The notes under the pieces are model-generated. The model saw only the letters and a program-made list of their open reading frames with translations. It had not been told where the DNA came from and did no database searches. A stretch of DNA of 64,000 bases from Lama guanicoe (taxonomy: Eukaryota), in the NCBI GenBank assembly GCA_013239625.1, contig MU053792.1, positions 1,258,112 to 1,322,111 of the forward strand. The letters are read 5' to 3'. Below are positions 23,571-62,275 of this stretch, piece by piece (within the stretch, counting starts at the first letter, position 1; every line of letters starts with the position of its first letter). The position numbers and the translations under genes are program-made.

Positions 23571-23700
23571 GTTTTTTTTTTTTTTTTTTTTTTTTTCCAT
23601 TATTTTTTTTTTTTTTTCCATTATTTTTTTTTTTTTTTCCATTATTTTTTTTTTTTTTTCCATTATTTTTTTTTTTTTTTCCATTATTTTTTTTTTTTTT
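23571..23700. repeat. Patterned L1 tail: (T15 CCATTA) x5 with a 21-bp period
   Basis: ccatta at 23597, 23618, 23639, 23660 and 23681. Confidence 0.95.
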
Positions 23701-30949: not shown

Positions 30950-31071
30950 GCATCCGCCGGTCGGAGCGGCGTCGGTCCGGGAGTCTCTGGGCGGCGGCGG
31001 CGGCCGCCGCTCCTCCGGCTCCGGGGCTCCGCGGAGGACGTCCGAGCTGGAGCTCGTGTGGGAGCAGAGCG
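30950..31071 (+). other. Putative non-coding first exon (start approximate)
   Basis: A (GGC)n leader ends at the consensus donor GCG|GTGAGT (31072), followed by a C-rich intron start. Confidence 0.65.
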
Positions 31072-31177
31072 GTGAGTGCGCGGCGCCCCCCTCCTGTCCC
31101 CCCGGCCGCGGCAGCCCCGCTGCGCCGCCCGTGCGGCCCCACCGTCCGCGGAGCCTCCCTGCCGGCCTCGCGCCCGC

Positions 31178-31239
31178 GCTCCTCCCCACCCCCGGCCCTT
31201 GCCCGTGCTCCTCCCCACCCCCGGCCCTTGCCCGTGCTC
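31178..31239. repeat. 29-bp tandem duplication
   Basis: gctcctccccacccccggcccttgcccgt x2. Confidence 0.95.
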
Positions 31240-32774
31240 GCGGCCCCGTCTCAGCCCCGCGTCCTCCGGGCGCCCACGGTGCGTCGGGCTGCTGTGACCC
31301 TTCCGTCCCCGACGCCGCCCGCTCCCGTGGACCTGCCCTCCCGGTCCTCACCCCGCCCGGCCCAGCCTCCCATCCGTCCCTTTCCTCCCCGTCTCCCGCG
31401 TCTCCCCGACCCTCGCGCCCTTCTTGGAGCCTCACCCTTGTTCCCGCTCCGCTTCCGGTGCGTCAGCTCTGCGAGGCCACCGGGAAGCCCCACTCGGGGG
31501 ACCGGCCCCCTTCAGCCTGGCGCGGTTAGTGTGGGATCCAGGCGTCGCTTTCCCCTGAGGCTGGGCCCGGACAAGTGCGGGCCTTACGGAAGGCGGGAAG
31601 TGGGGTCCTGGGACATTCTCGGATGGTTTTCCCCTGGGTAGGGGCTTGCTCTGGCTTCCAGGGGATATATTTTCGGAGGTGACTGGAGGACGGAGCGGTC
31701 GGGGAGTGAGGGAGTGGCGGCGGCAGTGGCGATTTGTGGCCCTTGGGTTAGGCTGAGGCTTGTTGGAAAACGTGGTTTTCTTGTCTTGGCTTTTATCCCC
31801 GACAGTTCGTTTGGCAGTGTTGAAGGTTTTCCAGTTTCTGCCAGATGCTGTATCGTGATGCTTTGACTTGGAATTTTTCATATGTCACCTCATTTCTCTC
31901 TTTTCAACATGAATCAGTGTCTGATTCTCCTCGCGGAGCAGACGGCAGGGATTACTGGGGAAATGGGAATTACTCTGTTTCTTGACTATTTTCCAGTGAT
32001 ACAGTTAGGATTCCTGAGAGAAAAGACAGAACGAACATCTTTGTTTTGTAGGATTTCCTTTGGAGTTACGGAGTATTAGAGAGGGAACAGATTTATCATT
32101 TATTTATCTAAATTAGATTTAAATGTTATGCCATTTTGGCTAAATGATTGTTTTGGGTTAATATTTCATAGTATCTAATGAGTGAAGTTTTTATGCCATT
32201 TACCTCTCAGGCTTCTGCTGTCGCTGTATTCTATATGAGGTGTAACATTCTAATTTCGTGATGGCTGTCTCTAAATATTTCTTGTGATAGTTGTGCTTTT
32301 ATGCTGTATTAAGCAAACTTGACACTGTATAATTTAGAGATGATCATCCTCCGTTGTTTTTCTCACACTTCTGACTGTCTTTAAAGTTGAGACATTGAGG
32401 TATTAGTTCTTCCAGAGTCATCAGACATTGAGTTACCTGCTAGGTGTTTTAGGTTAGGTTGTAACACATTTATTTCTTTTGACTGGAAAGAAGGTAGCTG
32501 ATAGAAATCCAGAGCTTTTATTACCACCTTGAACTAATTTGTATGACATTAAAAGTAGTTTAATAGTAGTTGCAAAATTGCTTCCATTGAGACCTAAGAA
32601 ATCATTTTTCTCCATTCATACATAATTTTTCCTCCCTGCCCTTTAACCAAGTCTCCTCTTTGCCTAATTTTCCATAAGTAAATATGAACTTGTTTTTTCA
32701 GTAACTTAGCAAGACTTGTAAAGTGGATCCTTATTCAGGTATTTTATGACAATTGCAAGACACTGCCATACATA

Positions 32775-39172: not shown

Positions 39173-39930
39173 GAATATTTTTTTCTTCCTCATCTCATTC
39201 TTCTACCATCTAACATGTGTTAATAGCAGTTAATCTTATATGTTTGGATTAAATCTACAGGATGTCAAAGGCAGAATGTGATTTCAGCTAGAAGAGAGAC
39301 AAGTAACTTCCAAAGTTGAAGGAACTTTGTAAACTCTTTGGAGAGACAGGTTGGTTTTCATTGTATGAGGGATAGTTGCATCATGTTGGAGGCAAGCATG
39401 GTTTTTCTATTCTTTTTTTGAAGTTAAGTATGGTTACAAGGTGTATACACAGAGGCCAAGTGGATTTTGGTAGCTTCGTACTACGCCAGCTTACTGAAGA
39501 TGAAGCTAAACTTCTCAGAATTTCCCTCCCTGTCTGGTTGTGAGTAGGTGTTGGCCACAAGAGACACTTTATGGGATTTTGGAAGCCAGCAGTGAAGCAG
39601 AAGTCATATCTTTCACCCTCTGAAGCTCAGTGCCGGATGCTAGGCAGGTGGGCCACTCACCTAGACTGTCAACTCATGTGCTAGCTGATTTGGTGGGCGT
39701 GGGGCAGCAATGGGGCCCATAGCTCCTCCAGTCCTCAGAGGATCTCCTCTTGGAGCTCTTCTTAATCCCAGGCCCAGTGCATGTGCAGTCAGCTTCCCCT
39801 GCGTGATGTCCTATGATGTCAGCATTGGAAGTGGTAACAGAAGCATGGGTTCTGCTTCACCCTCACATCTCCATGTTGTGGTGCACAGGCAGCTTTCTCC
39901 TTTGGCTGTCTAGAGTGACTTAGGCTTCGC
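38480..39930 (+). mobile_element. Ancient ERVL internal 3' region with an adjoining LTR-like segment
   Basis: Degraded ERVL-int motifs (cctggccacttggggctcctcataccagtgaatcaacag; ggggcatctcttagtcctccca). LTR-like from about 39468. Confidence 0.65.
39086..39172. repeat. (TG)n / (TG)n(TA)n microsatellite
   Basis: Two TG runs separated by agatatactt. Confidence 0.97.
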
Positions 39931-42510
39931 ACTGACACAGAGGCCGTGGCTACTCCACCAGCTCCCACAGTTGCACAGGATCTGTCTCCTCGTGGTTCTG
40001 CTTTTCTCATTGAATCACACCCTAAAGTCATGTCAGAAGGGACGTGGGAACAGTGTGGGGTTCTTATGCCAAAGGCCATTCAGTTTTCTTGGCAGGAACA
40101 CATACATAGTTTTTGTATCAAAATTCATGAAATTTATTTCAAAGAGTTTCTAAGATGCTCCCTTAAAGACTACTCATTAAAACTATCATTTTTGTTTGTT
40201 TTCTTCCTAAAATATGTATATTAATTCTGGAAAACTTGGCAGATCCAGGTAATTATCCGGATACCAGTGACATTTTGGTGAGCACCCTTCAAGCCTTTCT
40301 TCAATGTATGTATCTATAATGTATATATGCATATAAGCACACTTAATTTTTTATAAACATGGAATCACATTTAAATTCTGTTCTGTAAAAGACTCCCCCA
40401 AAGAGCAAGCACATCAAGAATATTTGTCTCTAGATAATTAAATAGCCCTAATTCAAGAACATACTTTTTAATTACTTCACAGTGTTCTTTTACTTAGGTA
40501 TACCATAACTTATTTAACCCCATTTCTTATTGTTGCTCTCACACAAATTTCAGTTTTTCTTAATTAATTTAAAAAAACAACTCTGAGGAGAACATTTTTT
40601 AATTAATCCTTTCAACCAATTTTGTTGAGTAGCTTCTCTGTTCCTGGCAGGTCATAGTGTCATTTCTGTGCAAATTCTAAATTCTAAACATAGCTGAACT
40701 TCTGCGTGGTTAAGTTTTCCATGTGTGTTGTGAGAAGGAAAGCATAAACAGGGAGGTTGCATCAATTGAAAATCTACCTAGATTGAATTGTATAAAATAC
40801 TAGGATTTTGTAAACCTTTCTAGAAGTCTCTTTGGAATGCAGCATTATCCATCTTTGGGAGTCCCTCTTACATTTGCCTGTGTCTAGAATATGCGTGGAT
40901 TTGCTGATCCATCTTATGAAGTAAAACTTTAAGTCCAACTTCTTTTCTCATCAGAGTGCCCCCCAATTTGCCTCTAGACCCTCTGCGGCCCACTGTACAC
41001 GGAAACAAAGCAGAACTCCAGTCCCTCCTCCAGACCTGCTGGATCCATGTCTGCATTTCACTGATCTCATGCACACAGGTAGAGCTTGAGAAGCGCTGAT
41101 TTAGCCCCTGACACAGCCCACACTGGACCTTGCACAACAGCGGTGAGGAGGCCAGGTCAGCAGTAACAGCTGTGTCAAGGACAGGGTCTGTACCAAGGTC
41201 CTGTGCCCCCTCCTGCCCTTTCACTTCACCTGAGCCCTGCCTGCACAGGAAGGCGGGCACTAAAATAGGTGCGTGCAGGAGACAGGAGGACACAGGGACC
41301 CCTGCAGGCTGCTCAGCAGGGTGAGGAAGGGTGGCACAGGAGAGGAAGGAAGGCAGTTCCTGGACGCCAAAACCACAACGTGTGTAGGTGCTGCTTCCCC
41401 CCCATTTAGCCCATAGCTCTGCCCCCGAGACGACTCTTCGCTGACCTCTTTCCCTTTCTGCATTTTGCCCCATATCAAAATGTCACCATCTAAAACTTTT
41501 CTCCATGAAAATTAGAAATGTTACATTGTCAGGGACTGAATGTGCCTGTTTTCTGACAGTTGTTGGCAGTTCCCAGCTTTTATGGTGTAGTCATGGTGGA
41601 ACCTGAGTCATCTAAAGGTGGTGACAGTGCCAAGGAGCTGACAAGGAGCTGCACACAAGCCAGACTGCAGGAGCTGGGGCCCAGTCACTGCCAGGCACCC
41701 TGGGCCACTGGCCCTCCTGGGGACAGGAGAGCCACGCTGGTCCTAACAGGGTTGATACGAAATGCTCCAAGCCTTGTGGTGCTGATGAATTCTTCCTGTA
41801 GCAGATGTGCTTAGAGACAGCCCAGAGTATGGAGTGTCTTCCCACATAGTTGTTTCTCAGAGATCCAAGGGGCAACACCTGACTTCCACGTGTGTCAGAA
41901 TTCTTTTCTCCCTTTTCTTTTTAAAGCTGAGAAACCACATGTTCTTGGATATAGACCTTACTTTTTGTTTCAAGGAAAAAAGGTTTCTTTTGTGCCTATT
42001 CATATACATTAAACAACTACCTGTGTGTGTGAGCGAGCGTGCATGCACGCACACCTTTTCTCTAAAATTCTTACTCATAGTCTGGAGGACAATGACTGAT
42101 TTTTTCCCACCTCACATAACTGCTATGAATTTCTCCACGCAAGGATGGGCCTGTTTGTACACACTGGGCACCGTTGGTGGAACGTTTATGCAAACAGCCC
42201 CAGAAGCTTGGTGGGCCAGGGCACCCTATGTTCTCAGGGAGCAGGGATGCCGGGGCCAGAGCCAGATTGGTCTGACCACACTCGGCCTGCCCCGGGTTTG
42301 AGATGTTTGCCAGGGCAGCAAGGAGCACCAGTGATGGGCTGGGAGGGATGAAGCTACCAAATTCCAGCTCAGTTTAGATCCTTCCCTCTACTGGGCTCCG
42401 GGGCGTGCCCAGTGCTAAACTCCAGAGTTGGTTGGGAGAAATCTCAGAGGAGGTTGGAGCCACATCCGCTAGTGCCTGTGAATTTCCTTGGGAGGGCACA
42501 GGCTGCCGAG

Positions 42511-42585
42511 ATGCCGGTCCGCCGGATGGTGACCCCTGCCCCACCTCTTACGCTTATGGAGCTCAGAGCTGGCCGCCATCCCCGG
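42511..42585 (+). pseudogene. CD109: CD109 pseudo-exon 1 (coding part)
   Basis: gccgagATG...CCCGG|GTAGGA. Removing one C in gccccac gives MPVRRMVTPAHLLRLWSSELAAIPG, against human MQGPPLLTAAHLLCVCTAALAVAPG. Upstream 42413-42510 resembles the CD109 5'UTR. Confidence 0.8.
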
Positions 42586-43369
42586 GTAGGAGCGTGTGGG
42601 GTTGGGGGGCACGGGAGGTGATCCCTGGCCAGGAGGTTTGATCGTCTGTCGCTTGATCTTGGTGTTCTGTGGGACAGTTGCTTTCTCCACCCAGGAGGTT
42701 GCTGAAAGGTCTGCCCATAACTGCTTTCTAAAGACGGTTGTTATACTTTTAGTCCATGTTGCCTCTGCATTTTTCTCAACTTTTTCCTCCCAAATAATGT
42801 GTCTTTTTCTTTCGAAGACTCCCCCCCCACAAACGAGATATTCTGACTTTGGCATTGGCAAGGTGTGGCCGAGGTGACTGAAGCATGGGTTCAGGTACAG
42901 ACTTTGTAGGGAGGTAACTCGTGAGACACCCAAGTGATAGAAAGCCCCTGTCGACCCCCCAACCCCCCACCTCGCAAAGGTTTTTGCCCTTGAGCCCTAA
43001 CCCCTAGCTCTGGCAGAGAAAGTGCTGTTTTAGCAATTTTTATGCTCTGCACCTGGTAAAGTCACCAAGAATAGTTGAATTTCAGATGGTATACTTTAAT
43101 CAGTGGTGTTGGTTAAATGGTGTTTTCTTGAGTAGATGCCAAAGCATGAAGATTTGAATAAGAAACAGGCAAAATGTGTGTGTGTGTTTAAGCCAAGAAA
43201 AAAAAAGCCACGCTGGGATGAGATCTTCTGTAAAGGAGTTTAGAGGCTTATACTTTGGCAGTAACTTCTGCGTGTCTCAGGGTAAGCTGTCCTGTGCTGT
43301 TTGTAGTTTATAAAATGGAAATTGTAACACAGGCCATCCTCTAGTGGTGCATGAATTAACTGCATTAAA

Positions 43370-43635
43370 ATTGATTTATGAGAAGGTACAGCATGATAAA
43401 TACAATGAACACTGCTGCATGTCATATATAAAAGTTAAGAGTAAATCCTTAAAGTTTTGATCATAAGGGAAAACTGCATTTTTTCTATTTCTTTAATTTT
43501 GTATCTAAATGAGATTATGGACATTCATTAAACTTATGATAATCATGATGTTATGTAAGTCAGATCCTTCTCTGTACACTTTAAACTTAACATGGTGCTG
43601 TATGTCAATTTTATCAATAGAGCTGGATAAAAATT
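43370..43635 (+). mobile_element. Old L1M 3'-end fragment in pseudo-intron 1
   Basis: aaagttaagagtaaatcct...ctgtacactttaaactt...tgctgtatgtcaatt. Confidence 0.75.
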
Positions 43636-43819
43636 GATTATGGGTGTTACTGTTACAATAGCATGTCAGTGCTGTTGCTAAATGGAGCAGTGGGGCAACA
43701 GTAATTGAAACAGTTGTAGTTAACACAATACAGGGAGACTGTCTCACTGTCTATGAAAGTTGAGGATCTTGAAAGAACGGAGATGTGCGGCTAAGAAACT
43801 TTGTTTTCCCCTCCTTTAG

Positions 43820-44016
43820 GCCCAAGTTTCTGGTGACAGCCCCAGGGATCATCAGGCCTGGAAGAAATGTGACTTAGTGGGGTGGAGCTTCTGGAACACA
43901 GCCCCTCACAGGTCACTGTGAAGGTGGAGCTGGTCAAGATGTCAGCCAACCTCACTGTCTCTGTGCTGGAAGCAGGAGTCGAAAAAAAAAAAAAAAAGGA
44001 GTCGTCTTTGAAAAGG
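43820..44016 (+). pseudogene. CD109: CD109 pseudo-exon 2
   Basis: tttag|G acceptor. Reads PKFLVTAPGIIRPGRNVT* (TAG at 43875), then after a +1 shift GVELLEHSPSQVTVKVELVKMSANLTVSVLEAG, a 23-nt insertion, and VFEK. Donor G|GTAAGA. Confidence 0.97.
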
Positions 44017-45524
44017 GTAAGATAAACAGCAGTCTTGCCCTTCTGCAGTAGTAACTGGAGTATGTTGATAAAGCTGTGTACTAGGTGAGTTAATGGAGAA
44101 GCCCTACATTTTCAGTAGCTTACATGATACACTTTTTTTTTCATATGAGAAAGGCTTTATTTATCTACCTCACAATTCTTAAAAGAGAAAGTTGGTAAAC
44201 AGTAACATCTTGATTAATTGAGTTCTTCATTTTTTCTAGTTTATTTTTCTTTTCCTGCATTTTTAAGAGATGGAACCTTAGAACCAAAAAACTTACTTCT
44301 TTAACTTAAAAGAAATTCACACTGTAAACATCAACCACTTAAGTTACTTTGAAAGAACTTTGGACAAGCAAACAGAGCCCACTTACTTCCCACTTCATAA
44401 TACACTTCTAATCCTTATGCATGTGAGTCCAAAATGGTGTTCCTGAGATGCTCTTCCAGGTGGAGATTCTGAGACCCAGGTTCTTTCCATTTTGTGGCTC
44501 CATCATCATTAATATGTGGTTTCCAAGTCTGCAGTGGAAGAACATGGAATTTCCCCCCTGGGAGTTTTTAATAGGGCAGGCCTGGATGTGGTCATATCTC
44601 TCCTTTTCTGATGGCCACATTTAGCTGCACAGGAGGCTGGGAACGTGGACCAGTGTGTGCCCAGAAGAAGAGGCGGGTGTCTTAACAGTCTGACACAAAA
44701 CCATATTTATGTATGGTTTACACAAACCATGTATTACCATATTTCTTTATTGAGTGCAGAGGATTTTACTAGGTAGTCCTGTGGGAAGGAAAAGATGAGC
44801 TGTAGTTAAAAATCTAGTTTTATGAAATTCTTTGTAGTTTTTTAAGTAGCAGGAAAAAAGATAACATAAAAGTGGGAACCATTTGTAAAAGAACCCACAT
44901 CTCCTGTTTTGTTTTTTTCTAACCAGGCCCAGGATTAAATTGGGTTAAGGAATGTCTTGTTTTTCAATACTAAGGGAAAAATAATTTGAGGAGGGGACAA
45001 TAAACAGTTAAAATATGAAAACATTTTCTTTTGATTAAAATGAACTTTTTTTTTAATTGAAAGAATAGTCTATACTCAGTGCTCACAACCTGATAAACAC
45101 TGGGAAGTAAAGGAAATAAACCAAAATCACCTGCAATCCTACCACCCAACTATAAATAGTGTTCACCAGATGCACATTTAGATGTTTAGTCAGAGGCCAA
45201 AAATTGAGGCATGAATTCCTATTATGTTAAGAATTATCTTTTAAAAACATCATTTAAGGTCTTGAAATGAAGGGTGGATGGGATTCCACAGTACTTCATT
45301 ATTATGAATGTATGTTTATCCTTTACCAGCACAGAGAAATTAACCCCATCATGAAATGAGATAAAATCAAAGTTTATCTACATCCAAGGTTCTTTCTGCA
45401 CTGCGAAGCTGAATGGGTTAGCTTGGGATAGGAGTCAGGAAAAGGTGATAAGTGCAGGTGGCCAGACCACTTTGTCTTTCATAGGTATGATGTCAGGAAA
45501 GTGGGAGGCCTTGTTTCCCTGGAG

Positions 45525-45720
45525 AGGAAATGTAGTTAGTGCTTAAGATCTGAGACTGAGTCTTAGTATTAGCTGTGTGATCTTGGGCAGGTTACTTTAC
45601 TTCTCTGAGCCTCAATTTCCTCATCTATAAAATGGGGATGAAGTACTTCCCAGGGTTGTTATAAAGTTATAATCAGTACTAGTACCTATTGGGCACGCAG
45701 TAAACAAATAGCTGTTAATA
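45525..45720 (+). mobile_element. MIR SINE
   Basis: tagctgtgtgatcttgggcaggttactttacttctctgagcctcaatttcctcatctataaaatgggga. Confidence 0.9.
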
Positions 45721-48683
45721 AGTAGTAATAACGTTGAAGAAGATGCCAGAAGGGTAGTTTCCATCTTATGTGGGGGTGGATCTGTACTTTTATTATTGAA
45801 CTGTTTATTCTGAAAATGAATAAATTTTGCTTTTAATGATAATGGCTAATAAAATGTTGAAATACTAAGTCATAGCAGACAACACTTAAGGTAGTTCCAC
45901 ATTCATTGTTCATTAAGAATTATCACTTTGGCTCTAGTAGTGTGGCAGTTTTCCTCCAGGGCAGAGGTCCAGAATAATGATGATTTTGATAGATATTTGG
46001 GCTTTGCTTGGGCATTTGCATACTCTTATTCTAGAATTTCTCCTACATTGTCTCTTCTGCAGTCTCCTTTATCAGTCTCCTTTTTTTCTATAAACAAATA
46101 GTATAAACACTGGGGTGCATGTTGCTGTGACTTGGTTTTTAAACTTTATTCTTAGATTCTCCCTTTGGGAGGAAAATTGGTCATATGCTTTTGGGAAGGC
46201 TAAAGTGCTCAAGATTGGGTCGGACAACCCTATTCTGGGAGCAAAATGGATCTTTGAAAAAAAGAAAGAAAATGCTACTTTCAGGGGCTGTTTTGGACTC
46301 AGTTGATGTACAGTTTTATTGAAAATACTATTGCCTGGAGCATTCTCCCTCTTTCAAAGGAGAATGTTAACTTTGTTATCGGGGCTGTGAGTCATTGTTA
46401 TCAGAGCAGATGCTTCCTGTAAGGGGTAAGGCTGAAGGATCAAGACATTTCTCCCTCCTTGTCTTCACATCGTTTGCTTTATCTGATTTCTCCAGTTGTA
46501 ACAACATGTAGATAAAGGAGGACTTTCTTAATCAATGGGGTCTGGATCTTCCTAGGATACATTTTTTTCCCTGCCACATAAACACAAATAAATATATGTT
46601 AGGTCTCATTATTTCATCATTATCTTACGAGGGCCTCCAAGAACTTCCTGCCAAGAAAAGATTGGTTTTAACACAGATTCATCTTCTAGCAGAACTGGGT
46701 AAGGAGTGGGACTGTTTCTGAGGGCTATTTCTAGCAGTTCTAGTCTTAGAAATTTGTGGGGCAGGGCAGTGTTTCACCATAACCATATTGCATTTCTAGC
46801 TTAATTTGTGTCAGAAATAGTAACAGCTAAAGGATTTGACTAAAGGATTTGCAGGACGACACCAAGTTGAAAAAAGTCAAGTGCTTGAAGTCGACCTTTT
46901 AATAAGGATGCATGGGGCAAGGAAGGGGGCCTTAAGTTGGATCTCTCTGCACATCCTTCGAGTCGCTCCCTGAATCCAGCAAGAATTAGGCATGAGTGAG
47001 GCCTCTCTGCCCCTATGTTCCAGTACTGAGGTGTGGCTTCTGTTTCTGGCTCTGTCTCTCCTGGGTCTGTGATGGACACAGTCATGTGTCAGAGCAGTAG
47101 AACTCAGGCATGCAGTTCAGTCCCCTTCAATTTCTCTCAAGTGAGAAAACCCCTCAAAGCTTTGACTCTATGAAGAGCTACATTAAAAAGTATTTCTATG
47201 AATGGGATTTCCTGCACTTCAGATCTGAGTAGCTGTTTTAAATTGCTGAAATGCTTGCCCTTCGATTTGTCATCAGTCTACTAGATTTATTTGGATTGGA
47301 GACTCAAAGCTGTTTTTTCACTTTCTTCCTTGCTTGGTGTCACTTAGATAAAACTAAATCCATCCCCTGCACAGACACACACATACTTGGTCTTTAGTCT
47401 TTGTGAGTGTTGGGAGGTAAGGTGGTGTGTCAGGCCATGATAAAAGGAAGCACAGTGTTCCTCTGGTTGCTGGGCTGACACAGTAGTCAACCCTGATGAC
47501 TGACTTATCCTGAAGTCATGAAAATCAGGGACTCTCAATAATCAAGGGTCCTGGTTGGCTGGGGCCGAGCCCCCTGCAGTTCATTCCACGGTGGGACGTT
47601 GTGGTGGTGCTGTGCTGTGCTGTCCAGGTACTGCCCATCAGGGATGAAGACTTGTTCCTTGAAGCTGCTGGGAGTACTGCCCTTCGAGCCAGCCCCTTTG
47701 GGGACTGCACCAGCTAGAGCCACCCTGTCCCGGGGGCACCCCTCCCCCCAACTCAGGAGAACTCTCAGGAGTCAGTGCTGCCTCTGAGTGCCCCATGGAC
47801 CTGTCCTGAGCCTGCATTGTGGCCCCTCCTCCCTCTCCCTAGTCCTGCCTCCTAGTCCCTTCTCTTCTCCAGATGCTGGTCCTGGGCACAGTCCCTGCAA
47901 AACCTCTTGCACTTTTTTTTTAGGACATCTGATACTATATTTTTTCATACTAATGAATCAAAGGGGAAATTATTTGATGAGAGGTTTCCAAAAAACATAA
48001 TATCCTGACTTTTTAGAAATTCAGTAAAATTGATAGCATACACATACATAAAACCAGTAACTTGTATCCTGCTTATTGGTGTAACAAGCATTCTGATTAA
48101 AGTCTCACACAGTATAAACATGCTAAATAAAATAGCTAAAAAGTAAAAGGCATTAATATTCTAAATGAGAAAGCACATTTCCTATTACCTATGGATACTG
48201 TTATTTGCATTCCTCAAAAAAAACCAAAATCAACTGAAAAGCAATTGGAAATAATAAACAAATTCAATAAAGTGGTCATCTATAAAAATGCAGAAAATCT
48301 GTATAAAACCTCTTGTAGTTTAATCAACTATCTCAGAGTGGGCTTCCCGGGGAACCCAGCCCTAGATAGACAGTGGTTGTGATGCAACTTTCCTTTGATC
48401 TTGATCTTGAAATTAACTTCGTACTGTGTAGTGTGAAGAACTGATAGAAGAGATGGGAAATTTTCTAGTTTTTATTTCCTTTTTGGAAGTTCTTGTGTAC
48501 CACAAACTATTTTAAAATTAGTTCCACTGCTGCAGTGCTTGTATGTAACTAAGGGATGGGAGAAATATTAAGGAAGAAAAATCCATAGGTTGTGGTGATG
48601 ACTAACAGAGCTGAGGAGAGAAAGGAGAGGACTGAGGACTGAGATTCTGAACCTCTGTGACTGAGGGAATAGGACTGTTGAGA

Positions 48684-49188
48684 TGTTACCAAGTCCAAAC
48701 TCGTTCTGCTCAGCGCACAACAGGCCAGTAAATCAGGAGGCAAGTTGTTGGGGCAAGGAATAGTGACTTTATTTGGAAAGCTGGTAGACCTAGAGGATGG
48801 CAGACTAATGTCCACTTCCCCACGTCAGACTTCAGGCTGCTTTTACACTAAACAGGGAAGGTGGTGTGGTTGGTTGGTACAAACTTCTTGGTTTAGGAAT
48901 CTTTTCTTGCAGCTCTCCACATGGGTCAGGTCAAGGTGTCCCTGTAAACCTCCAACAAAACAAAACTTAGTTTCTATTCTGCAACTTGTTATCTTTATAT
49001 AGTACAAAAGTATCAATATCCTTGAAAGTCAGAGCCTTGAGAATAGGCTCTCCTGTGTATTTCAGGCTAAAGGCAACATTCCTTTATGGAAGGTGCAGAA
49101 CCAGCAAGACTTAAGCCTAGAAAGCAGGGCACAGTGTTAAAGCCAAAAGAGAGATCTCATGGAGTCAGGTTTGTTCTTCTCTATTACG
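48684..49188 (-). mobile_element. Solo ERV1-class LTR, same family as 1682-2227
   Basis: Colinear with the first copy (caggccagtaaatcaggag, ggggcaaggaatagtgactttattt, cagagccttgagaataggctctcctgt). Imperfect TSD gaga/aaga. Confidence 0.9.
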
Positions 49189-50414
49189 AAGATACACAAA
49201 GTGGCTACCCAGGCTCCCAATGCCAGTCCCCCCCCCCATATTGACTGTTTAAGTGTTTCAACCCAAATATTTTGCAAGATCTTCCTGCAGAGTACCTTGC
49301 CTTTTTTTAACAAATATCTTTACAAGACATAACTTGTCAGTAGTCTCTCTTTATGGTTCTTTTGGGGTTTCACCCAGTTTAGTTGCTGCAACATCTCTAG
49401 GGCTTCTCAATTTCACTTTAGTTCACCATAGAATACACCTCTCCCATTAAAAACAAGAATTTAATGCACAGAAGTTTCTTCCCACAAAAGGAGATATTCC
49501 TGAAGCGTGATTACACGCTTTCAGAGTTAAATCTTGTGCAAATTATACCCACTTCATATTAATACTTTGCTAAATCAAAAAAGATCCATGACAAATGCTA
49601 GACACAATGCTGGGGTAACATTGTGACCCGTACCCTCCTGGTGAGGCTCACCTGTCTAAAGGGCTTTTTGTGGTCTGGTCCAGCCTCGTCTCCACTGCCC
49701 CTCCCTCCTCTGGTCTTGTCTCATCCAGCTCTTTGCTTCAGTAGACTCATGCTGACCCCCTCCCTCTTTGCACTTGCTGTATCTGCTCAGCTGTCCCTCC
49801 CTCAGCATTCCAAGACACTCTGTTCAGTGGCCTATGATTTCAGAGTCCTGCTCTTTGCTTCCTGTGGTGACAGTTATTAGAAAAACTGATTTGCACTGAG
49901 TGGTTAGTGATTTTGATGCATTGCTTATCTCCTCCTAAAAACATATTTGTGTTTCACTGAGGTCCATTGGGGCAGTGGTCACAGAGGGGGTGCCCACATC
50001 TGAGAGTGCACAAGACCATTTATAAGAGTGTAGGTGGAAAAAGTACTTTTATTTCTATTATTTTATTGACAAAATTAAAAAAAAATTTAATACTTTGAGA
50101 AAGTGCATGTATATTTTTATAAAATATATCTTACACTTATATAAACTTTATATATTGTATAATACAGAAATATATAACATTTAAATAAATACATTAATAT
50201 ATATGTAAATTATGTATTTATAATATCACATACATAAAACTATATATTTATGTATTTTATACTTATATATGTTTTATAAATCTAACTTGACAAGGGTAAT
50301 GGGTACTAAGTATTTTATTGATAGAGCACTCTGTCATCGGACACTGCTGTAGAGGCACACTGACATGCCAGTAGGTGACTCTGCAAACTTTCTGGCACCG
50401 TGATGACTTAGATT

Positions 50415-50640
50415 TATCAAGTATTTCTTACGTGCCAGGCACTGTTCTGTACCCTTTACAGGCATTGGCGTACTTATTCCTTACAACCACCTGGTGAGAT
50501 GGTTGCAATTATTAGCACCCTCATTTTATGGATGACAGAAGAACCTGGAGGGTCAGGTAACGTTGTCAAGGACAGGACTCGTATGTGGCTGGCTCAGGAG
50601 ACCACTGATGTGGTCTGATTGCAGAGGCTACTTAGTTAAC
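50415..50640 (-). mobile_element. MIR SINE
   Basis: ttacgtgccaggcactgttct...cctcattttatggatga... Confidence 0.75.
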
Positions 50641-51392
50641 CCTGCTCCATGCTGTTCCTGTCTGTTCCCTCGGGGTAGACATATGTGGCCTCCAGGAGAG
50701 AGGGAACACGTGTGTCTTGTTCACTGTGATGAAATAAATGTTTTTCAAATGAATGAAGGAATTGAGGGCCTGTCACCATCTCTGAATTCATATCACTTAA
50801 ATAAGAACTTTGGATGAGTACTCTTTTATTTTGAACTTGAAACAGTTTTCTCCTTGTAATAGATTTGATGAGGAATTGACATGTGTTAAATTAGCAGTCT
50901 TTGTTTAGGAACTTACATGAAAAAAAGTCTGCATCATTCTAGTACTAATGGGTCAAGTACGAGTCCCAGCTCTCCCCGACGTGACTAGTGCCTCCCTCTC
51001 TTCCCTGTGTCCTGAGTGTGTGACAGCACAGGAAATGGACCTCAGCTTGCTTTTGTGCTCTGTAGGAAGTGTCCCTCAGACAATGGACAAGCTTAAACAG
51101 CAGCAGGAGCTGCAGCAGCACTGACAGCAAAAGTAAAAATGGAAAGCAGAAGCAGACTTAGCTGATTTTGGGGTGTTTCACCCACTGATAGCCTTTCAAG
51201 CCTTAGTTCTTGGCACTAGAAGCTGTAACAACTCTCAGGTATTTTGGGCTTTAGGAAAGTTGTTTTGGTTTGACCTAATAAGCTTGTGGTTTCGTAAGTT
51301 TATGACTCCCTTTGCATTTGAAAGAGGATTGAGTCTTAGGAGTGTTGTATTATATCATCATATTCAAATTATGACTATTTTCTTTCTTTTGG

Positions 51393-51417
51393 GCTCTTTC
51401 AAGACACTCTTCCTTCA
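51393..51417 (+). pseudogene. CD109: CD109 pseudo-exon 3
   Basis: gctctttcaagacactcttccttca|gt (GSFKTL..PS), 25 nt against a recalled 29 nt. The acceptor reads GG instead of AG after a polypyrimidine tract. Confidence 0.85.
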
Positions 51418-52397
51418 GTATTTATTTTAAAAATTTGATTTCAAAGATATACATTGCATCAGTGAAATAAAGAAATTAATATTTTATTGGCTTTTATATC
51501 AATTTGCAGTCCTTGTGAGTTTGACTTGAGTTCAGTTCCCCCTTCAGATTATTTAAGAATACTATTACTTCTGAGAGATTGGCTATTAGCCTCCTCAAAC
51601 TCATAGCAGAGATTTTCTTCTCATAAAATAGAGAACCTCACTCAGGGGGACTGGCTTGGGCTCTTGGCACAGGGACCTGGGCTGGTTTGGCCCTGCTTCT
51701 GAACTAATGAGCCTTATAGTCTTGGGTGTGTTATTGATGCTCTGAGTTTCTCTGTTCTGAAAAAGGACACTGCCTTGCTGAGCCGTATTGGAGTCTGAGG
51801 CAAAAGGAAACTTCAGTGAGTAATACTGATCCTGCCTTTGTTTAATGTTTTGACTTTGTGGTTTATAATTTAATTTTTGTATCACTTTTGCCATTTAAAA
51901 ATTTATAATAGTTTAAATATTAAAAATTTATTTATCTTTATTACTGAGATTTTTTTGATGCCCCCTTGAATTTGGCACTTGGGGCAAGTGCCTTGCTCAC
52001 CTGGGCTTTGTCCTGGCCCTGGAGGAGGGTGAAGGTGTCGCCTGTCTGGCACAGGGGCTGCCTTGGAGGTGAAGGGAGATGGTCACATGTTGCAACACTT
52101 GCTACAGAAAGTTTAGATTTTGAGAGAGTCGTAAAACCTGATGACTGAAGGTTGTGTGTGAGCCAGTCCTACTTCCCATAGCTTTGATTTGGAAGTTTAT
52201 GCTTTTATTACTGTTTTGTTTTGGAGCGTCCCACGTTTACTGTACAGTTGAGTAGACTACAGCATCCACAATGAGGTGCAATTTGATGGACTTTTCTGGG
52301 AATAGATGACTGATAATTTTGACCCTGACACCACATTACATACTTAAGTAGGGTCAGCGCTACCCGATGATCCAGGTTCCCCCATTACCTCTGTTTT

Positions 52398-52511
52398 AGG
52401 GGGAGGGAGGGTAAGTGATCAGGTTTATTTACTTAATGGAAGTCCTGGGGATTGAACCCAGGACCTCCTGCATGCTAAGCACATGCTCTACCACCTGAGC
52501 TACACCCTCCC
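52398..52511 (-). mobile_element. Camelid tRNA-Ala-derived SINE
   Basis: ctggggattgaacccaggacctcctgcatgctaagcacatgctctaccacctgagctacaccctccc. Confidence 0.88.
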
Positions 52512-53490
52512 TGCTGCTATTCAGAAGCACATTCAGAAGCCCCATTCCTTTGAGGGATTCTTAGAGAATATAGTGCTCCCAAACCGTCCTTTGTAAAAAT
52601 TACTTACATTCCGTTGATACTATACTTCTTACCTGTGCTTTTATATACTAACCTTACTAAGAAATACACTGCTGTAACAATGGAAACTGGGGGGAAAAGG
52701 CATAAGCAGACAGATGTGGGGGAAAAACCCCAATCATAGAGACAGTAAGACAGTAGATCACATTAATGTAAATCTCAGAGGTTAGGTGCTGGCCTCCAGC
52801 TCCCCGTGCCAGTAACTCCGAGGAAAGAGAATTCCAATGAGAAGATTCAGATGAATCCTTTGTCATACAATTGCCTGATAGCAGAAGGGGGCGATGTTTA
52901 AGTTTGGGGATCACAGGCTGTAGTGAAGAGAGGCTGAAAAGAACAGGCATGTAGATGGTCCAAGGGCACTCGGGCTGATTCCAGTAATGCTCTTGTGAAG
53001 TGTGCTCCTCCCAGCTCTCATTAACAAGAAATTGGCTACTATTATTCTTTAAGGTCTGAACAATAAAATACTAACCCCGACATCCTACATTTGTCTTTAA
53101 TATTATGCTACTTCTGTTGTATTTATCTTAACAATTATTTATTGAAAGCTTTACTAGAGGTTATATTTAGGACTAGATCTGCTTTTAGTGAAACAATTTT
53201 AAAGACAGTCATGAATTGGGAAAATTTGATAAGGCTTAGCAAAAAATAGTTCTGCATTTGTATGAATTTTCAATTAAAACAGACCCATCTTTTAAAGTTC
53301 GCTTGCACCCTACTGCTTCTGAGTGTAATATTTTAAATTAATTTTAAGGTCCTCATGAATTTTTGCTAATGATATGACTGTTTTGACTACACTGAACAAA
53401 TTAAATACATGATTAGCTCACTGTTTATAGTTTTTATACAGTAAAAGCAGCCTTCAATAAGAAGTAAATGTAATTTCTGCTTGCTATAAA

Positions 53491-53553
53491 GAAAAATTGT
53501 GCTGAACACTGGAATTTGACACAACATTGTAAAATGATTATAAATCAGTAAAA
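53491..53553 (+). mobile_element. Very short L1 3' terminus
   Basis: gaaaaattgtgctgaacactggaatttgacacaacattgtaaaatgattataaatcagtaaaa; homologous to the other L1 ends in the window. Confidence 0.8.
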
Positions 53554-53574
53554 TACTAATCAATTAAAAGATTT

Positions 53575-54445
53575 TCCCAAAGGGCCTCCACATTGCGCAG
53601 GCGCAGCCTGCCTGGGCCCCGCCCCACGTGCACCACTGGCAGCAAGGGCGGCGGGCAGGACGGGCGGCTCAGGAAGCCCGCTGGGCCCGTGCTGGAGTGG
53701 GGAGCGTCGGGAGCGTCGGCAGTGGCACCAGGGCTGGCTTGGTGGTGGTGATGGTCAAGTCTTGGGTGTAGTCACGTTCTGGCCAGACTGGTGTTCTGAC
53801 CCATAGCCCACGAGGAGCGCGGCCAGGCAGCCGGCAGCCCAGAGGAAGGAGCGGGAGAGTTCCGACATCCAGCCATCGGCGCTGGCGTTTCAGCTAAAAC
53901 TGGTGTCCAGCGCTGCATTTGTCGCTTGGTACCCCACAGCGCGGCCTGGGAGGCTCCGCTGCGCCCGCGGGAGCGCGCCGGGTCCAGGAGGGACCCCAGG
54001 CCTCAGGGTGCGGAGGCGGGGCGCTGGCGATACCAGCTGGGCTTCTACGGGAGGGAGAACAGGGGCGTGGAGAGGACACCGAGGGAAGCTGTTCTTCTCA
54101 GCCACTGTACCATAGCGGAGAAACTGGCAGACCCGGGAAGCTCTTGTATTTGCCCTCAGGATGCCACACTGGACGCGGATGAGCTTTTCTCGTGCCTGAG
54201 GTAGAGAAGGCTCCCACCAAAGCTTGGTTGGAGCAACCTACATGACAGGCGATGACCTCCCCCCCGCCCCCCTGGGCCTGCTGGGCTGTAATTCCGCGGC
54301 CCTACATGACCCAATCCAGGGCTGCGCTGCCCGGACCAGGGTGCCGCTGGGCAGAAGTGGTTTCCAGGCGGTGCAAGAGTTAAGTTTGTGCTGTCCTGCC
54401 GCGTTCCCAAGGTTCTTGCATACTTACCCTTCAGAGGACCGCGTT
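53575..54445. promoter_or_regulatory. Second CpG-rich, promoter-like block inside pseudo-intron 3
   Basis: NRF1 motif tgcgcaggcgca (53594), GC box ccccgcccc (~53617) and E-box cacgtg (~53625). GC-rich against AT-rich flanks. Confidence 0.7.
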
Positions 54446-54585
54446 TTCTTTTTTTTTTTTTTTTGAAGCCAAGTTGTATTATTTTATTTTTTTAACGTTT
54501 TTTATTGATTTATAATCATTTTACAATGTTGTGTCAAATTCCAGTGTTCACAATTTTTCAGTCATTCATGGACATATACACACTC
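54446..54585 (-). mobile_element. Short L1 3' terminus with a double A-tail
   Basis: T-tract, short spacer, second T-tract, then ttttattgatttataatcattttacaatgttgtgtcaaattccagtgttca. Possible TSD cgcg(c)tttt. Confidence 0.8.
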
Positions 54586-57500
54586 GCGCTTTTTTCCCTT
54601 GAAAATCGATTTTGCTGAAGTGACCCTGTGTTAGGACACTCCAGGAAAATGAAGACGTCGTGTGGTGGAGGGGTTTCTGCTCGCTGCACAAGTCTGTGAG
54701 CAGCTGAAACACGGAATGTGGTCTTCTGCCCTCATTCCTGAGCCGCACACCGTCTGTCTCTGTCGCACTTTCCCACCCTGACTTTTCCAGATTTCTTGAG
54801 GTTTCAGCCAGCCATAGCAGCAGCTAGTCAGCGCCAGTGCTGTAGTCAGAGATGATACGAGTTGGGAATCCCTTTGGTCCATTCCCACCTTCACTTTACA
54901 AGTGGAGAATCCGAGACTTAGAAGTGACTTGACAGAAAGGCACAACTGTTTGGCATCAGGGCTGGATTTTGAAATGCCTGTTAGTGTTCTGTCACTGCTC
55001 AGGCTTTAGTAAGGGTGAATGCTGTGTGATGCCCAATCACAAAAATATCCACAAGTGCATCCATGTTTACAGCAAATGGTAGAAGTTAGGTTGTAAAAGC
55101 TGTATTTAATGCTGTTTTCAGCTATTTGTACTTATTTAATCATGCATGTTTACCCTTAAAAAAACCCCTGAGCTTGCTTTGAGGTCTGGTTTGCTTTAAA
55201 GCGCCCCAGAAGATGACTACAAGAATGCTGTATCTTTTTTTTTCCTGGCCCAATCATGAAAGCTTTCCTAAATTCCTAAAGTCTAAGCAGTGGGGTCATT
55301 CTGTACCCTCATGACTATGAACATTTTTTCCATCTACTACACTAGTTGGAGATTTCCTTGGATGTAAACAAGAAACTGATGGTTTTCATTGGTCCGGCCT
55401 ACGGCCAGAAGCACGAGAGTGCAGCCAAGTAAGTGAGGTCCCATCGTCAGCCTTCAAACAATGGAAGGTGGCTCTTCTCTCAGGATACCTCAGAACAGTA
55501 TTTATTTATTAGTGCATGACCATCTGACACCCAGACCAGATGAAGGCACTAGTCAACTTTTATATTTTTAGGTTGGAAATATACTAGAAGTTGTGTTTTC
55601 TTCCCAGATCCTAGTGGGTTATCTTGTTTAAGTGCTCAGATGCACACACCCCACTGTGGAAGCCATTGTTTTAGTTTGCCATCTGGACGTTCAACTTTAG
55701 TCCTCAGATTTTTATTAAATAGTCTTTGTAAGGGGACATTTCACTATTGTTTTAAAACTAGAGACACATTGGCTTATTTTATTTTATTTTATGTGGCATC
55801 TATTGAGCTAGATCAAGGAAGACTTCCAAATTGATTTTCACCATTTCAGAGCAAGGACTGGCATCTATAATACAGTTTTAACATGTATTAAACCTAGTAT
55901 AATATTTAAATAACTTTCAATAAAATTAGAAAATGATTGCAATAAATCAAAGATTATTAGTGAAAAAAGATTTTTTGTACAAAATATGCTAGAAAAATTA
56001 TTTTATTCTCTTTGTTAAGAAATCAACTTAAAATGAGGGAGTGGCTTTTAAAATCAGAATGCCTTTAAAGTTTAAATTTAATTATCAGTATATATTTAAA
56101 TAGAAACTGCCGTTTTAAATTTCTCAATTTTTTTTGAAAGTTATTTAGAATCTCCATTACTTTTGATAACTGGAGTTACTAATGAAGTAAAGTTGGAGAA
56201 ATATTATTTTGTTGCCTCAGTTGCCTTAAGACAGCTGATCTTTCAGAGAAGGGGATATGGTTTTTAATGGCCCAGATTAGAATAAGGAATCCATTTATTG
56301 TCCCTCAAGACCCTTTTTGATAATGCCTCCCTCATGTACTCTGGGTGGAGAATTGTCATCTACTCCAAGAGACACAAAAGAGACTTAGCATAACTAAGAA
56401 TCAACCATGCTCAACTCAGGAGATATCTTGTTAATCAAAGCCCTTGGTACTGTGCACCCCTAGACTCTTGTCCTGCTGCCAGACAGTGTCTGCGGAAGCT
56501 ACATCTTTCCCCAGCCCTGTGGCCTCGGTAATTGTGGCCCCAAGGAGGCAGAAGGCAAGTGACCAGCAGAGATCAGGAGCTTTTACTATCTTCTGGGATC
56601 CTCTCCACTGTGGGACACAGGTTACAACCCATCCAGGTCTGGCACAGAGAGAATCTTTCAGAAGGATTGCTTAACATCCACAGTATTTTCCGTAGTCTCC
56701 TTCTCCTTATGTCCCTCTACTGGTGACAATGGAGGGCCAAGATCTGTACTGACACCCAGGGTCCATGATGACGCCCCCAGCTGTACAGTGGTGCCCCATG
56801 GTTCACAGGGACACCCCAGGTCTACTGTTGTGCCAAGTCCATATTGTCATTTCTGACTTTCCACCCCTAGGATTAGTACTGAGGCTTTGAGGATCCCAAA
56901 TCACCTAAATTTTACATGTGGGGAGGTAAGGTTTCTAACTGGAGGGTCGAAAAAGAGAATTAGGGTAACTGAAAGGAGCAGAAAGATAGTACCATCTCTC
57001 CTGTGTCAACTCCTTAAGGAGGATGGAGTCGGGGACAAAGTGAAATGTTTTGGACACCTTTGTGTTAATTGTGATTCTGTAACTCTTTGGCCTCCCTGTG
57101 GTTAATAGACCTCTTTAGTTTCAGGCCTCTGTGTTGTTAATTTTGACGTATCTTCTATCTACTGTCTGTTCTGGGGTCTCTGTGGCACTAAAAATCATCA
57201 AATTATATACAAATCATAGACATTCCATCAAATACCATTTTTTAAGCATGAATTATTTATCAAATTTGTTCCATATGTAAGTATGTGGTATGCTGGTCCC
57301 TGGCATATGTATTTTTCTACTTACAGTATTCAGGAATCTGTTTAAAGCAATCTGAGGACTGAAGCATCATTTGAGGGAATAGAATATAAGAATGCAAGTT
57401 CCAGGCCAGTTTCTCATCCCTCTAGGGCACACATCTTGGTTCATGTTGAATCCCAAGTGCCTAGAACAACCTGGAGCCAGAAGGTAGTACTAAAACCATT

Positions 57501-57933
57501 ACCAGAGGTCATTTGAAGCTGATGTTACTGGTGGTTTCACCCAAAATTTTATTATGAAAATTTCCAACATCCAAAAAAATGTGAAAGGGTTTCATACTGA
57601 GCACTCCTACAGCACATGCTTACAATTTGACCATACCTGCTCCGTCTCACGCCTGTTCATCTACTCATCTCTTTGTCCATTAATTCATCTTATGTTTAAA
57701 GTGCATTTCCAAGTAAACTGCAGACATCAGTACTTTCTCCCTAACTTTCCTGCTGACCATTTTACAGTTACGTTTCCTTCATTTCCTTTTCCATATTGCT
57801 GTCCTCTTGGTGGCTGCTATTGCTCGAAAATCTCCTCGGAGCTCTCTGTGGACAAATACTATTTGCAAAAAGGAGGCAGAATGTAGTTTCAGAATCTCAG
57901 ATTTATGAATATGAAAATGAACTAAAAGTCAGG

Positions 57934-58330
57934 TGTACTAGTTATCTCTTGTTGTGTAACCTGTTATCCCCAAACTCTGGTGTAAACCAGCTATAAGCTT
58001 GTTTTACTTCTCACAGGTGTTGTAGGTTGGGAATTGGGGAGCCACGTGGTTGCGTGGTTCTGCTTTGGGGCTGTACTCATGGTGTCAGAGCCACGGTCAT
58101 GTGAAGTCTCCCCCATGTGGGCCCTGCCCAGGCTTCATGAGTGTCCCCATCACGTGGTGGCTGACTTCCCCCAGAGCCAGGAATCCAAGGAAGAGAGAAC
58201 CAGGTAGAAGCTGTCCTTTTAATGACGGAGCGTCATTCTGCTTTTGAGAAGCAAGTTCCTAGGGCATTAGGCGCTACCTTTCCAAGGGAGGAGGGTCAGA
58301 GAGGCTTTGGACATACTCGAGAACTACCAT
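57934..58330 (-). mobile_element. MaLR LTR (MLT1 family)
   Basis: tgtactagttatctcttgttgtgtaac...ccccaaact...tctcacagg...; 3' part gtggctgacttcccccagagc. Confidence 0.7.
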
Positions 58331-59081
58331 GTGAAGGCTCTTGTTAGAATAGTGTAGCTCATCCTGGTGTGACTCCACCTGTGATCCGGAGCACCTTCCT
58401 TTACCCTCCCAAGCCCCAGTCTCCCGGTGCATGAACTGATGCGTGTTAGAGCTCCCACCTGAAGGACTGCTGTGAGGTGAGATGACACTGTGTGAGCTGC
58501 TGAGTCTGGCTTCTGGTCTGTTGATGTTAATGTTAGGAAGTGGCATTTCCATTAAGGATAGAGACGGCAAAAAGCGTGGCACCAGCATCCTTACCCAGAC
58601 TCTGACATGATGCTTAAGATACAGGAAGAGACTGCATCATAGAACAGGTAGGAGATCCTGGAAAAGATATGGCAAGAAAACAAATCATGTGCAGCTGTCC
58701 TTTCACCCATGGGCTGCCTCAGGCAGGGCGAGGCGTGGAATAGAGCGCTGAGGGTTGTTAGGTACTCTGACCCACAAGGGCATCAGTGAGGAAGAGTGCG
58801 CTTGGCGTAGGAAATGACAGGGTGACTGCTGGAGAGCCATGGGACGTGCCTCCCGCAGGCCCGGAGCCCTGCGCTTTAACTTGAGAGCTGACTCCAGGTT
58901 GCTGAAAGAAGAAAACAAATTGTTTAACTTTGGCTCCTAGGAGGGGCACGTTTTTCAACATTGCAATTACTTTTGATAATAGCATGTATTTAAAATTTCA
59001 ATCCTAACTTACAATTAACTTACAGTTTTTGAGATAAAATAAGGAGACCTTGATACGTCTGACCCCATTTTTCCCCCACAG

Positions 59082-59302
59082 CTACCTCTGAGCAGTGCCA
59101 ATGAGATTTATGAGCCTCGATGTGCCCAGGGTAAGATTTTATTCTCAAATGATACATGCTTATCACTTGAAACCATGGGAATGACTGTCTTCATTCAAAC
59201 AGACAAGCCCCCGTATAAGCCAAAGCAAGAAGTGAAATTTCGGATTGTTACACTCTTCTCAGATGTTAAGCCTTACAGAACGTCTTTAAATATTCTAATA
59301 AG
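59082..59302 (+). pseudogene. CD109: CD109 pseudo-exon 4
   Basis: cccccacag| LPLSSANEIYEPRCAQGKILFSNDTCLSLETMGMTVFIQTDKPPYKPKQEVKFRIVTLFSDVKPYRTSLNIL. It has a 3-codon deletion and a 1-nt deletion near the end, and the donor reads AG|ATAAGT. Confidence 0.97.
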
Positions 59303-62093: not shown

Positions 62094-62275
62094 GTGGGAG
62101 CTGGTGCTGTTGGCTTGAGGTCTGCCCTGTGACTGTGCTCTGACCCTTTGGCCTGGAGCAGTGGTGGCAAACCCAGAACCTCATAGTGGGAGCTGTGCTG
62201 TTGGCTTGAGGTCTGCCCTGTGACTGTGCTCTGACCCTTTGGCCTGGAGCAGTGGTGGCAAACCCAGAACCTCAT
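62094..62275. repeat. Near-perfect ~91-bp tandem duplication
   Basis: 62094-62184 and 62186-62275 differ by a single G. Confidence 0.97.

What the first reader, a model, noticed from the sequence alone, without database searches (positions are those of the whole stretch)
42413..59302. Intron-containing CD109 pseudogene: duplicate or lineage-specific gene loss?
Seen: four colinear exons with introns. Exon 1 has a +1 frameshift; exon 2 has a stop, a +1 shift and a 23-nt insertion; exon 3 has a 4-nt deletion and an AG>GG acceptor; exon 4 has 9-nt and 1-nt deletions and a GT>AT donor. Spliced exons 1+2 stop at TGA 43919 after about 58 codons, mostly off-frame. Known: CD109 is a GPI-anchored alpha-2-macroglobulin/C3-family TGF-beta co-receptor, and in human its upstream neighbour is SLC17A5. 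I see no SLC17A5 exons in the 42 kb upstream. Inference: this is an old non-syntenic segmental duplicate rather than the true locus. If it were the only copy, it would be a notable gene loss. The ORF track misses it entirely.
Basis: partly seen in the sequence, partly recalled or inferred. Interest (0 to 1): 0.7.

Follow-up and report, generated by a model that had tools for sequence, protein, structure and literature searches.

The report
Dead RAB6A-CD109 fusion duplicate in camelids
This is an old, broken spare copy of the front of the CD109 gene that landed behind a copied RAB6A promoter in the ancestor of camels and llamas; the working CD109 gene is intact elsewhere, so it is not a gene loss.

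Summary
It is a duplicate, not a gene loss. Dromedary, Bactrian camel, wild camel and alpaca all have full-length CD109 (1447-1457 aa), only about 80% identical to these exons. The copy branches off before camels and alpaca split, and its changes fall in a neutral pattern.

The intact CpG island at 30.5-31.6 kb is a decayed RAB6A exon 1 with its intron. A wild-camel RefSeq model (LOC116660861) splices this exon into CD109-derived exon 2 at the donor and acceptor seen here. That model lies on a 25.2-Mb sequence; intact CD109 lies on a 76.0-Mb one.

The locus is therefore a mosaic RAB6A-CD109 chimeric pseudogene, probably transcribed from the borrowed promoter. The camel model's reading frame is broken here, and no selection was detected. 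The scan has no earlier CD109 or RAB6A note but has similar unchecked mosaics in this genome. New member of a known kind.

The parts
30465..30516 (+). Short first exon of the wild-camel model LOC116660861, projected on the window; GT donor follows
   Evidence: tblastn of P0109 residues 1-18, E=3e-6; junction print-out
30550..31650 (+). Intact CpG island: duplicated RAB6A promoter, exon 1 and start of intron 1
   Evidence: GC 0.76, CpG o/e 0.89; RAB6A identity
30700..31071 (+). Decayed RAB6A-derived exon 1: no ATG left, about 8 codons missing against homologues, GT donor at 31072
   Evidence: 86.5% aa identity over 104 residues to P0109; tail aligned with Rab6-linked translations; no ATG in 30550-31100
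39571..39647 (+). Cryptic exon with GT donor, joined to CD109-derived exon 2 in an unnamed protein record (P0111)
   Evidence: 22 of 26 residues identical, E=6e-13; donor and phase
42150..42700 (+). Decayed CD109 promoter island
   Evidence: GC 0.60, CpG o/e 0.39, CpA o/e 1.43; that intact CD109 has an island here is recalled
42511..42585 (+). CD109 pseudo-exon 1 (signal peptide), +1 frameshift, skipped in the camel model
43820..44016 (+). CD109 pseudo-exon 2; splice sites intact; +1 with TAG at 43875; 23-nt insertion
43974..44004 (+). A15 between two copies of an 8-nt direct repeat; looks like a minimal retro-insertion with target-site duplication (inference)
   Evidence: sequence; absent from P0109, P0110, P0111
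51393..51417 (+). CD109 pseudo-exon 3; 4-nt deletion, acceptor GG
52231..52272 (+). Intron-3 stretch homologous to an intron-derived piece of a wild-camel ab initio model of intact CD109 (P0038): intron homology, colinear
   Evidence: 11 of 14 residues, E=0.001, best hit of that piece
59082..59302 (+). CD109 pseudo-exon 4 (MG1/MG2 region); 9-nt and 1-nt deletions, donor AT
   Evidence: same deletion and same end in P0090

Best explanation
A mosaic, non-processed duplicated pseudogene from the camelid stem lineage. Shown: a genomic copy of CD109 exons 1-4 with introns lies 11 kb behind a genomic copy of the RAB6A promoter and exon 1, on one strand. Shown: intact CD109 lies elsewhere. Inferred: two DNA-level duplications were joined, within RAB6A intron 1 on one side and just upstream of CD109 exon 1 on the other, somewhere between 31.7 and 42.1 kb. 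The CD109 promoter then became methylated and decayed, while the RAB6A CpG island stayed unmethylated. Inferred from gene models: the RAB6A promoter drives a transcript that splices from 31071 (or from a cryptic exon at 39.6 kb) to the first usable acceptor, CD109 exon 2. It skips exon 1, which has no acceptor, and exons 3-4, whose splice sites are dead. The RAB6A start codon is gone and the frames do not match, so the RNA is most likely non-coding and neutral, and the exons decay freely.
For: Full-length CD109 with thioester motif and no X in dromedary, Bactrian, wild camel and alpaca. The copy is 79-80% identical to them over 155 scored residues, whereas camel and alpaca differ at 4 of 170. 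The tree places it sister to Camelus+Vicugna, UFBoot 91, branch 0.20 against 0.05-0.06. It shares camelid residues S96 and L15 and lacks S24, A54, A117, A155. 7 of 17 changes in exons 2-4 hit otherwise invariant columns, against 20 of 183 in intact lineages, P=0.003; the neutral share is 69 of 132. P0109 (XP_032327096.1) joins the upstream exon to exon 2 at the window's own GT and AG and shares K27, R40, V60, S66. It sits on a 25.2-Mb sequence against 76.0 Mb for intact CD109. P0110 has the same junction and P0111 a second one. Homologues of the upstream exon continue into RAB6A (305 bits against 221 for RAB6B). 14 of 24 listed runs, in 7 studies and 3 organism labels, hold 72-78% of the words of 42300-46300. 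CpG o/e is 0.89 against 0.39.
Against: No whole genome was held and no reads were laid, so copy number, the junction, the 3' end and transcription were not seen directly. The models may be partly ab initio; their RNA support is unseen. The camel model's last exon has no match in the window. Exon 2 is free of stops and frameshifts in P0109, P0110 and P0111. The tree rests on about 170 residues and one long branch, with no ruminant among the rows. One of the 17 changes (L90F) depends on where the exon-3 gap is put. Intact camelid RAB6A was not looked up.
Confidence: 0.88

Rival explanations
1. Functional camelid-specific chimeric gene: the RAB6A promoter drives an RNA or a short protein containing CD109 exon 2 that selection has kept.
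For: The promoter island is still intact. Both exon-2 splice sites are intact while those of exons 3 and 4 are lost. Exon 2 is open in three records, and the same junction appears in two models.
Against: The 249-aa camel frame is broken here by a frame change in the RAB6A exon and by TAG 43875; the projected chain stops after 146 codons, five codons into exon 2. Exon 2 is no more conserved than exon 4 (6 of 58 against 12 of 74, P=0.45). A 173-nt exon stays open by chance with probability 0.2-0.5 under rough assumed rates. There is no signal peptide exon and no Pfam match.
Confidence: 0.08
2. Lineage-specific loss of CD109: this is the true locus.
For: Intron-containing, colinear exons 1-4; exon 5 onward may lie beyond 64 kb and was not checked. 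One camelid record is flagged LOW QUALITY PROTEIN (P0100).
Against: Intact proteins in four camelid species; P0100 has no X and is 99.7% identical to dromedary. The copy lacks four residues shared by all camelid CD109s, so it left the lineage before they arose. The upstream neighbour is a RAB6A fragment.
Confidence: 0.01
3. Assembly artefact: a chimeric join or sequencing errors created the mosaic or the lesions.
For: The +1 in exon 1 lies in a C run and the +1 in exon 2 doubles a T. The exon-2 lesions are absent from three other records. No reads were laid.
Against: The same RAB6A-CD109 join is modelled in another species' assembly. The exon-4 deletion and end recur in P0090, seen on 4 Logan contigs. 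14 runs hold most of the words.
Confidence: 0.02
4. Compatible with the best explanation: the window is one of several paralogous copies of an amplified block, not the single orthologue of LOC116660861.
For: Three versions of exon 2 differ from each other by several residues (window, P0109/P0110, P0111) and two versions of exon 4 by 4 of 82. Unchecked notes describe amplified mosaics in this genome.
Against: Those differences also fit the roughly 16-My Camelini-Lamini split. No look-alike window was found among noted ones.
Confidence: 0.35

Closest known systems
LOC116660861, Camelus ferus (XP_032327096.1, 'uncharacterized protein', 249 aa)
   Same: Same upstream exon, same splice junction into CD109-derived exon 2, same copy-specific residues
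   Different: Its exon 2 has no +1, no stop and no poly-A insert; its RAB6A exon is about 8 codons longer; its last exon is not found in this window. The name gives neither RAB6A nor CD109.
CD109 (thioester-containing alpha-macroglobulin family; family placement in PMC12874980, passages read; protease inhibitor affecting TGF-beta signalling in PMC12927315, listing only)
   Same: Exons 1-4, residues 1-169, about 80% identity, intron positions and phases
   Different: Frameshifts, stop, dead splice sites, decayed promoter; no exon 5 or later, no thioester and no GPI tail in the window; different chromosome in wild camel
RAB6A
   Same: 5' exon sequence, donor after the codons for E-Q-S, CpG-island promoter
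   Different: Start codon lost, coding part diverged, no exon 2 in the window
Chimeric pseudogenes and fusion transcripts from incomplete segmental duplications in human: HYDIN2, ANAPC1P2, GKAP1-KIF27 (PMC13122177, abstract and section 24 read; PMC6169893, abstract and Fig. 1 legend read)
   Same: Pieces of two parent genes joined through an intron, 5' partner lending the promoter, usually annotated as a single-parent pseudogene
   Different: Camelid, and much older (about 80% aa identity against more than 99% in the human-specific cases). The join seems to lie upstream of CD109 exon 1, not in a CD109 intron. Expression and function are untested here.

Membership tests
Duplicated (non-processed) pseudogene | Parent exons in order with introns kept | tested here: met
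   Four exons with matching phases; intron-3 homology to the intact wild-camel locus
Duplicated (non-processed) pseudogene | Disabling lesions and neutral decay | tested here: met
   7 of 17 against 20 of 183 changes at invariant columns, P=0.003
Duplicated (non-processed) pseudogene | Intact parent elsewhere in the same genome | tested here: inconclusive
   Met for wild camel, where both loci are in RefSeq, and parent proteins exist in three more camelids; the window's own assembly was not held
Unitary pseudogene (gene loss) | No functional copy in the lineage, locus at the syntenic position | tested here: not met
Processed pseudogene | Introns absent | tested here: not met
   Introns of 1.2, 7.4 and 7.7 kb; RAB6A exon followed by a GT donor
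Chimeric pseudogene / mosaic segmental duplication | Contiguous pieces of two different parent genes | tested here: met
   RAB6A exon 1 and CD109 exons 1-4 on one strand; that the parents are on different human chromosomes is recalled
Chimeric pseudogene / mosaic segmental duplication | Spliced chimeric RNA from the 5' partner's promoter | tested here: inconclusive
   Junction present in models P0109 and P0110, another in P0111; no reads laid
Chimeric pseudogene / mosaic segmental duplication | Mapped breakpoint and copy number | not testable with these tools
   No eukaryotic genome held
Functional CD109 / TEP protein | Signal peptide, full MG domains, thioester motif, GPI signal in one frame | tested here: not met
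   Stop after 58 codons; no exon 5-10 match in the window

The most novel reading that the evidence does not exclude
The RAB6A-CD109 unit is a camelid-specific chimeric gene that has kept an active housekeeping promoter and a spliced CD109 exon for more than 16 million years because its RNA is useful, or, in Camelus, its short MG1-containing product. It would be one of a set of promoter-capture mosaics made by a burst of stem-camelid duplication, comparable to the primate duplicons.
Probability: 0.1. Interest if true: 0.55.

Novelty: new member of a known kind. Interest (0 to 1): 0.27.

Why it matters
It removes a false gene-loss candidate. It also explains an 'uncharacterized' RefSeq camel gene as a RAB6A-CD109 mosaic, which can mislead annotation and read mapping for both parents. 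With other, unchecked notes on this genome it suggests that camelids carry many old promoter-plus-fragment mosaics. That would be a non-primate system for studying how chimeric duplicates are born and decay. No new mechanism is needed.

Tried and rejected
Whole-genome search: no assembly held.

RNA runs: 5 rows on record as RNA hold 0.12-0.29 of the words of 42300-46300.

Pfam on the 150 longest of 299 ORFs (50 codons or more) beyond 25 kb gave 1 hit, MG2 on exon 4, E=9e-4. The 150 longest of 218 ORFs upstream of 25.2 kb, with the L1-like blocks left out, gave 0 hits. These scans are too weak to exclude single exons. The three minus-strand frames of the upstream island against the PDB gave 0 hits each, so no support for an SLC17A5 exon 1.

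Exons 5-10 of CD109, RAB6A exon 2 onward and the camel model's last 41 residues had no convincing match in the window. P0105 and P0106 ('CD109 antigen-like', dromedary) are 96-99% identical to intact CD109 residues 299-562 and are not this copy. Selection on exon 2 was not detected.

Look-ups of earlier findings by place, sequence and the words RAB6A gave nothing for this locus. Paper searches found nothing on it by title or abstract start: CD109+pseudogene, 69 papers, 25 listed; CD109+camel, 32, 15 listed; LOC116660861, 0; RAB6A+CD109, 8 of 8 listed. Supplements were not searched; annotation tables there might list the locus.
Full report
Observation. The window is mammalian. It is camelid by the gene tree below and by a SINE that I recognise from recall as the camelid type; no genome was held. 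Exon 4 matches human CD109 in the PDB at E=2e-21. A frameshift-aware alignment to camel and warthog CD109 and the junction print-out reproduce each lesion. Exon 1 is 75 nt with a +1. Exon 2 is 197 nt with a +1 that creates TAG 43875 and a 23-nt insert. Exon 3 is 25 nt with a GG acceptor. Exon 4 is 221 nt with an AT donor. Exons 1+2 stop after 58 codons. The insert is A15 between two 8-nt direct repeats, which looks like a minimal retro-insertion (inference). Exons 1 and 3 are too short or diverged to be significant alone.

Duplicate, not loss. A search with exon 4 returned 89 proteins of 96 candidates, among them full-length dromedary and alpaca CD109 at 79% identity. Their clusters add Bactrian and wild camel. 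The five checked have the thioester motif and no X. I aligned the first 172 residues of 28 hand-picked intact proteins (mostly one per species; partial records and most isoforms left out; no ruminant was returned) with the copy read through with X. The copy is sister to Camelus+Vicugna (UFBoot 91), with a branch of 0.20 against about 0.05-0.06. It shares camelid S96 (0 of 24 outgroups) and L15 (1 of 24) but keeps the outgroup state at 24, 54, 117 and 155. So it arose on the camelid stem: after the split from other artiodactyls (41.4 [24.7-60.6] Mya) and before Camelini-Lamini (15.8 [9.2-23.2] Mya; PMC5577142, passages read). Its private changes amount to roughly 0.06-0.08 substitutions per site (rough conversion). 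In exons 2-4, 7 of 17 hit columns invariant in all intact proteins, against 20 of 183 for intact lineages (P=0.003); the neutral share is 69 of 132. The CD109 promoter region has CpG o/e 0.39 with excess CpA. A piece of intron 3 matches an intron-derived part of a wild-camel model of the intact gene (E=0.001), so this is a DNA-level copy.

The sequence is real. 14 of 24 listed runs, from 7 studies and 3 organism labels, hold 72-78% of 443 words from 42300-46300 (their DNA kind is guessed by the tool, and one may be the window's source). A paralogue about 10% diverged would leave only a few percent (inference). An independent Logan ORF, P0090, has the same three-residue deletion in exon 4 and ends at the same stop, where six of the seven intact-type ORFs read on through the donor; it differs at 4 of 82 residues.

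What lies upstream. An intact CpG island at 30.5-31.6 kb (o/e 0.89) holds a + strand exon with no ATG and a GT donor at 31072. A search with its three frames returned one protein, wild-camel LOC116660861 (XP_032327096.1). This model reads the upstream exon (86.5% over 104 residues) and then passes straight into CD109-derived exon 2, at the donor and acceptor present here. It shares the copy's private residues K27, R40, V60 and S66 but has neither the +1 nor the poly-A insert, so those lesions are younger. It lies on a 25,176,080-bp sequence; intact wild-camel CD109 lies on a 76,025,729-bp one. That is the direct evidence for non-synteny.

The upstream exon is RAB6A. Searching the representatives with P0109 gave 21 hits. 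P0110 has the same junction and tail. P0111 joins a cryptic exon at 39571-39647 to an unbroken exon 2 and runs into intron 2. Seven hits match the upstream exon. Two of them continue into Rab6, and one is best matched by RAB6A including its tail (305 against 221 bits for RAB6B). Two others continue with what reads as RAB6 exon 2 out of frame (inference from the code). The window lacks about 8 codons at the place where the RAB6A start codon should be (the placement is inferred). RAB6A exon 2 is not in the window.

Mechanism. Shown: a RAB6A 5' fragment and a CD109 5' fragment in tandem, both decayed, with the parent CD109 intact. Inferred: two segmental duplications joined between 31.7 and 42.1 kb. 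The RAB6A island stayed unmethylated and still fires. Splicing goes to the first good acceptor, exon 2, skipping exon 1 (no acceptor) and exons 3-4 (dead sites), and ends in an exon not found in this window. Transcription rests on database models whose RNA support I could not see. Protein function is unlikely. The camel frame is broken here (146 codons, ending five codons into exon 2), there is no signal peptide, exon 2 is not more conserved than exon 4 (P=0.45), and it can stay open by chance. Against a purely neutral reading: the promoter and both exon-2 splice sites survive, and exon 2 is open in three records.

Open points. The window may be the other-tribe orthologue of LOC116660861 or a paralogue; three versions of exon 2 and two of exon 4 exist. 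P0111 has V44 and I71 like intact camel CD109, unexplained. Copy number, the breakpoint and anything beyond 64 kb were not testable.

Comparison and novelty. This fits chimeric pseudogenes from incomplete segmental duplication, described in human (PMC13122177, abstract and section 24; PMC6169893, abstract and Fig. 1 legend). Four paper searches showed nothing on this locus; supplements were not searched. The alpaca genome paper does not mention CD109 in its main text (PMC6598621, passages). Earlier scan notes, unchecked, report similar mosaics in this genome, one with a CpG first exon spliced to another gene's exon 2 and one including COL12A1; none concerns CD109 or RAB6A. Verdict: real, correctly read as a duplicate, more structured than first seen, but a new member of a known kind. 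Interest 0.27.

Noticed in passing
window 53580-54430: Second CpG-rich piece (GC 0.67, o/e 0.63) inside CD109 intron 3, with promoter-like motifs and a GTAAGT donor on the minus strand. It is flanked by two inverted 81-nt matches (53491-53569 and 54482-54559, 88%) that look like L1 3' ends (recalled). Possibly a third gene's promoter fragment; no Pfam hit, no look-alike note.
   Followed up: partly
window 1682-2226 and 48684-49187: Two copies of one LTR-like element, 75% identical; the one in CD109 intron 2 could help date the duplicate.
   Followed up: no
window 10400-15630, 23640-25020, 34730-35720: Minus-strand L1-like blocks, 73-79% alike; the GC-rich internal repeats at 12.7-14.4 kb look like an L1 5' UTR (recalled). 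They explain most long ORFs and the T skew there.
   Followed up: no
P0111 against window 43820-44050: Third version of the pseudo-exon 2: shares the copy's private residues but has V44 and I71 like intact camel CD109. Could be a paralogue, gene conversion or chance.
   Followed up: partly
P0105, P0106 (dromedary 'CD109 antigen-like'): Models covering residues 299-562 of intact CD109 at 96-99% identity: a split annotation or a young partial duplicate.
   Followed up: partly
window 55345-55430: Exon-like stretch ending in a GTAAGT donor within intron 3; parent unknown.
   Followed up: no
window 62094-62275 and 32775-32936: Short local duplications: 91 nt at 99% identity, and 61 nt at 100%.
   Followed up: no
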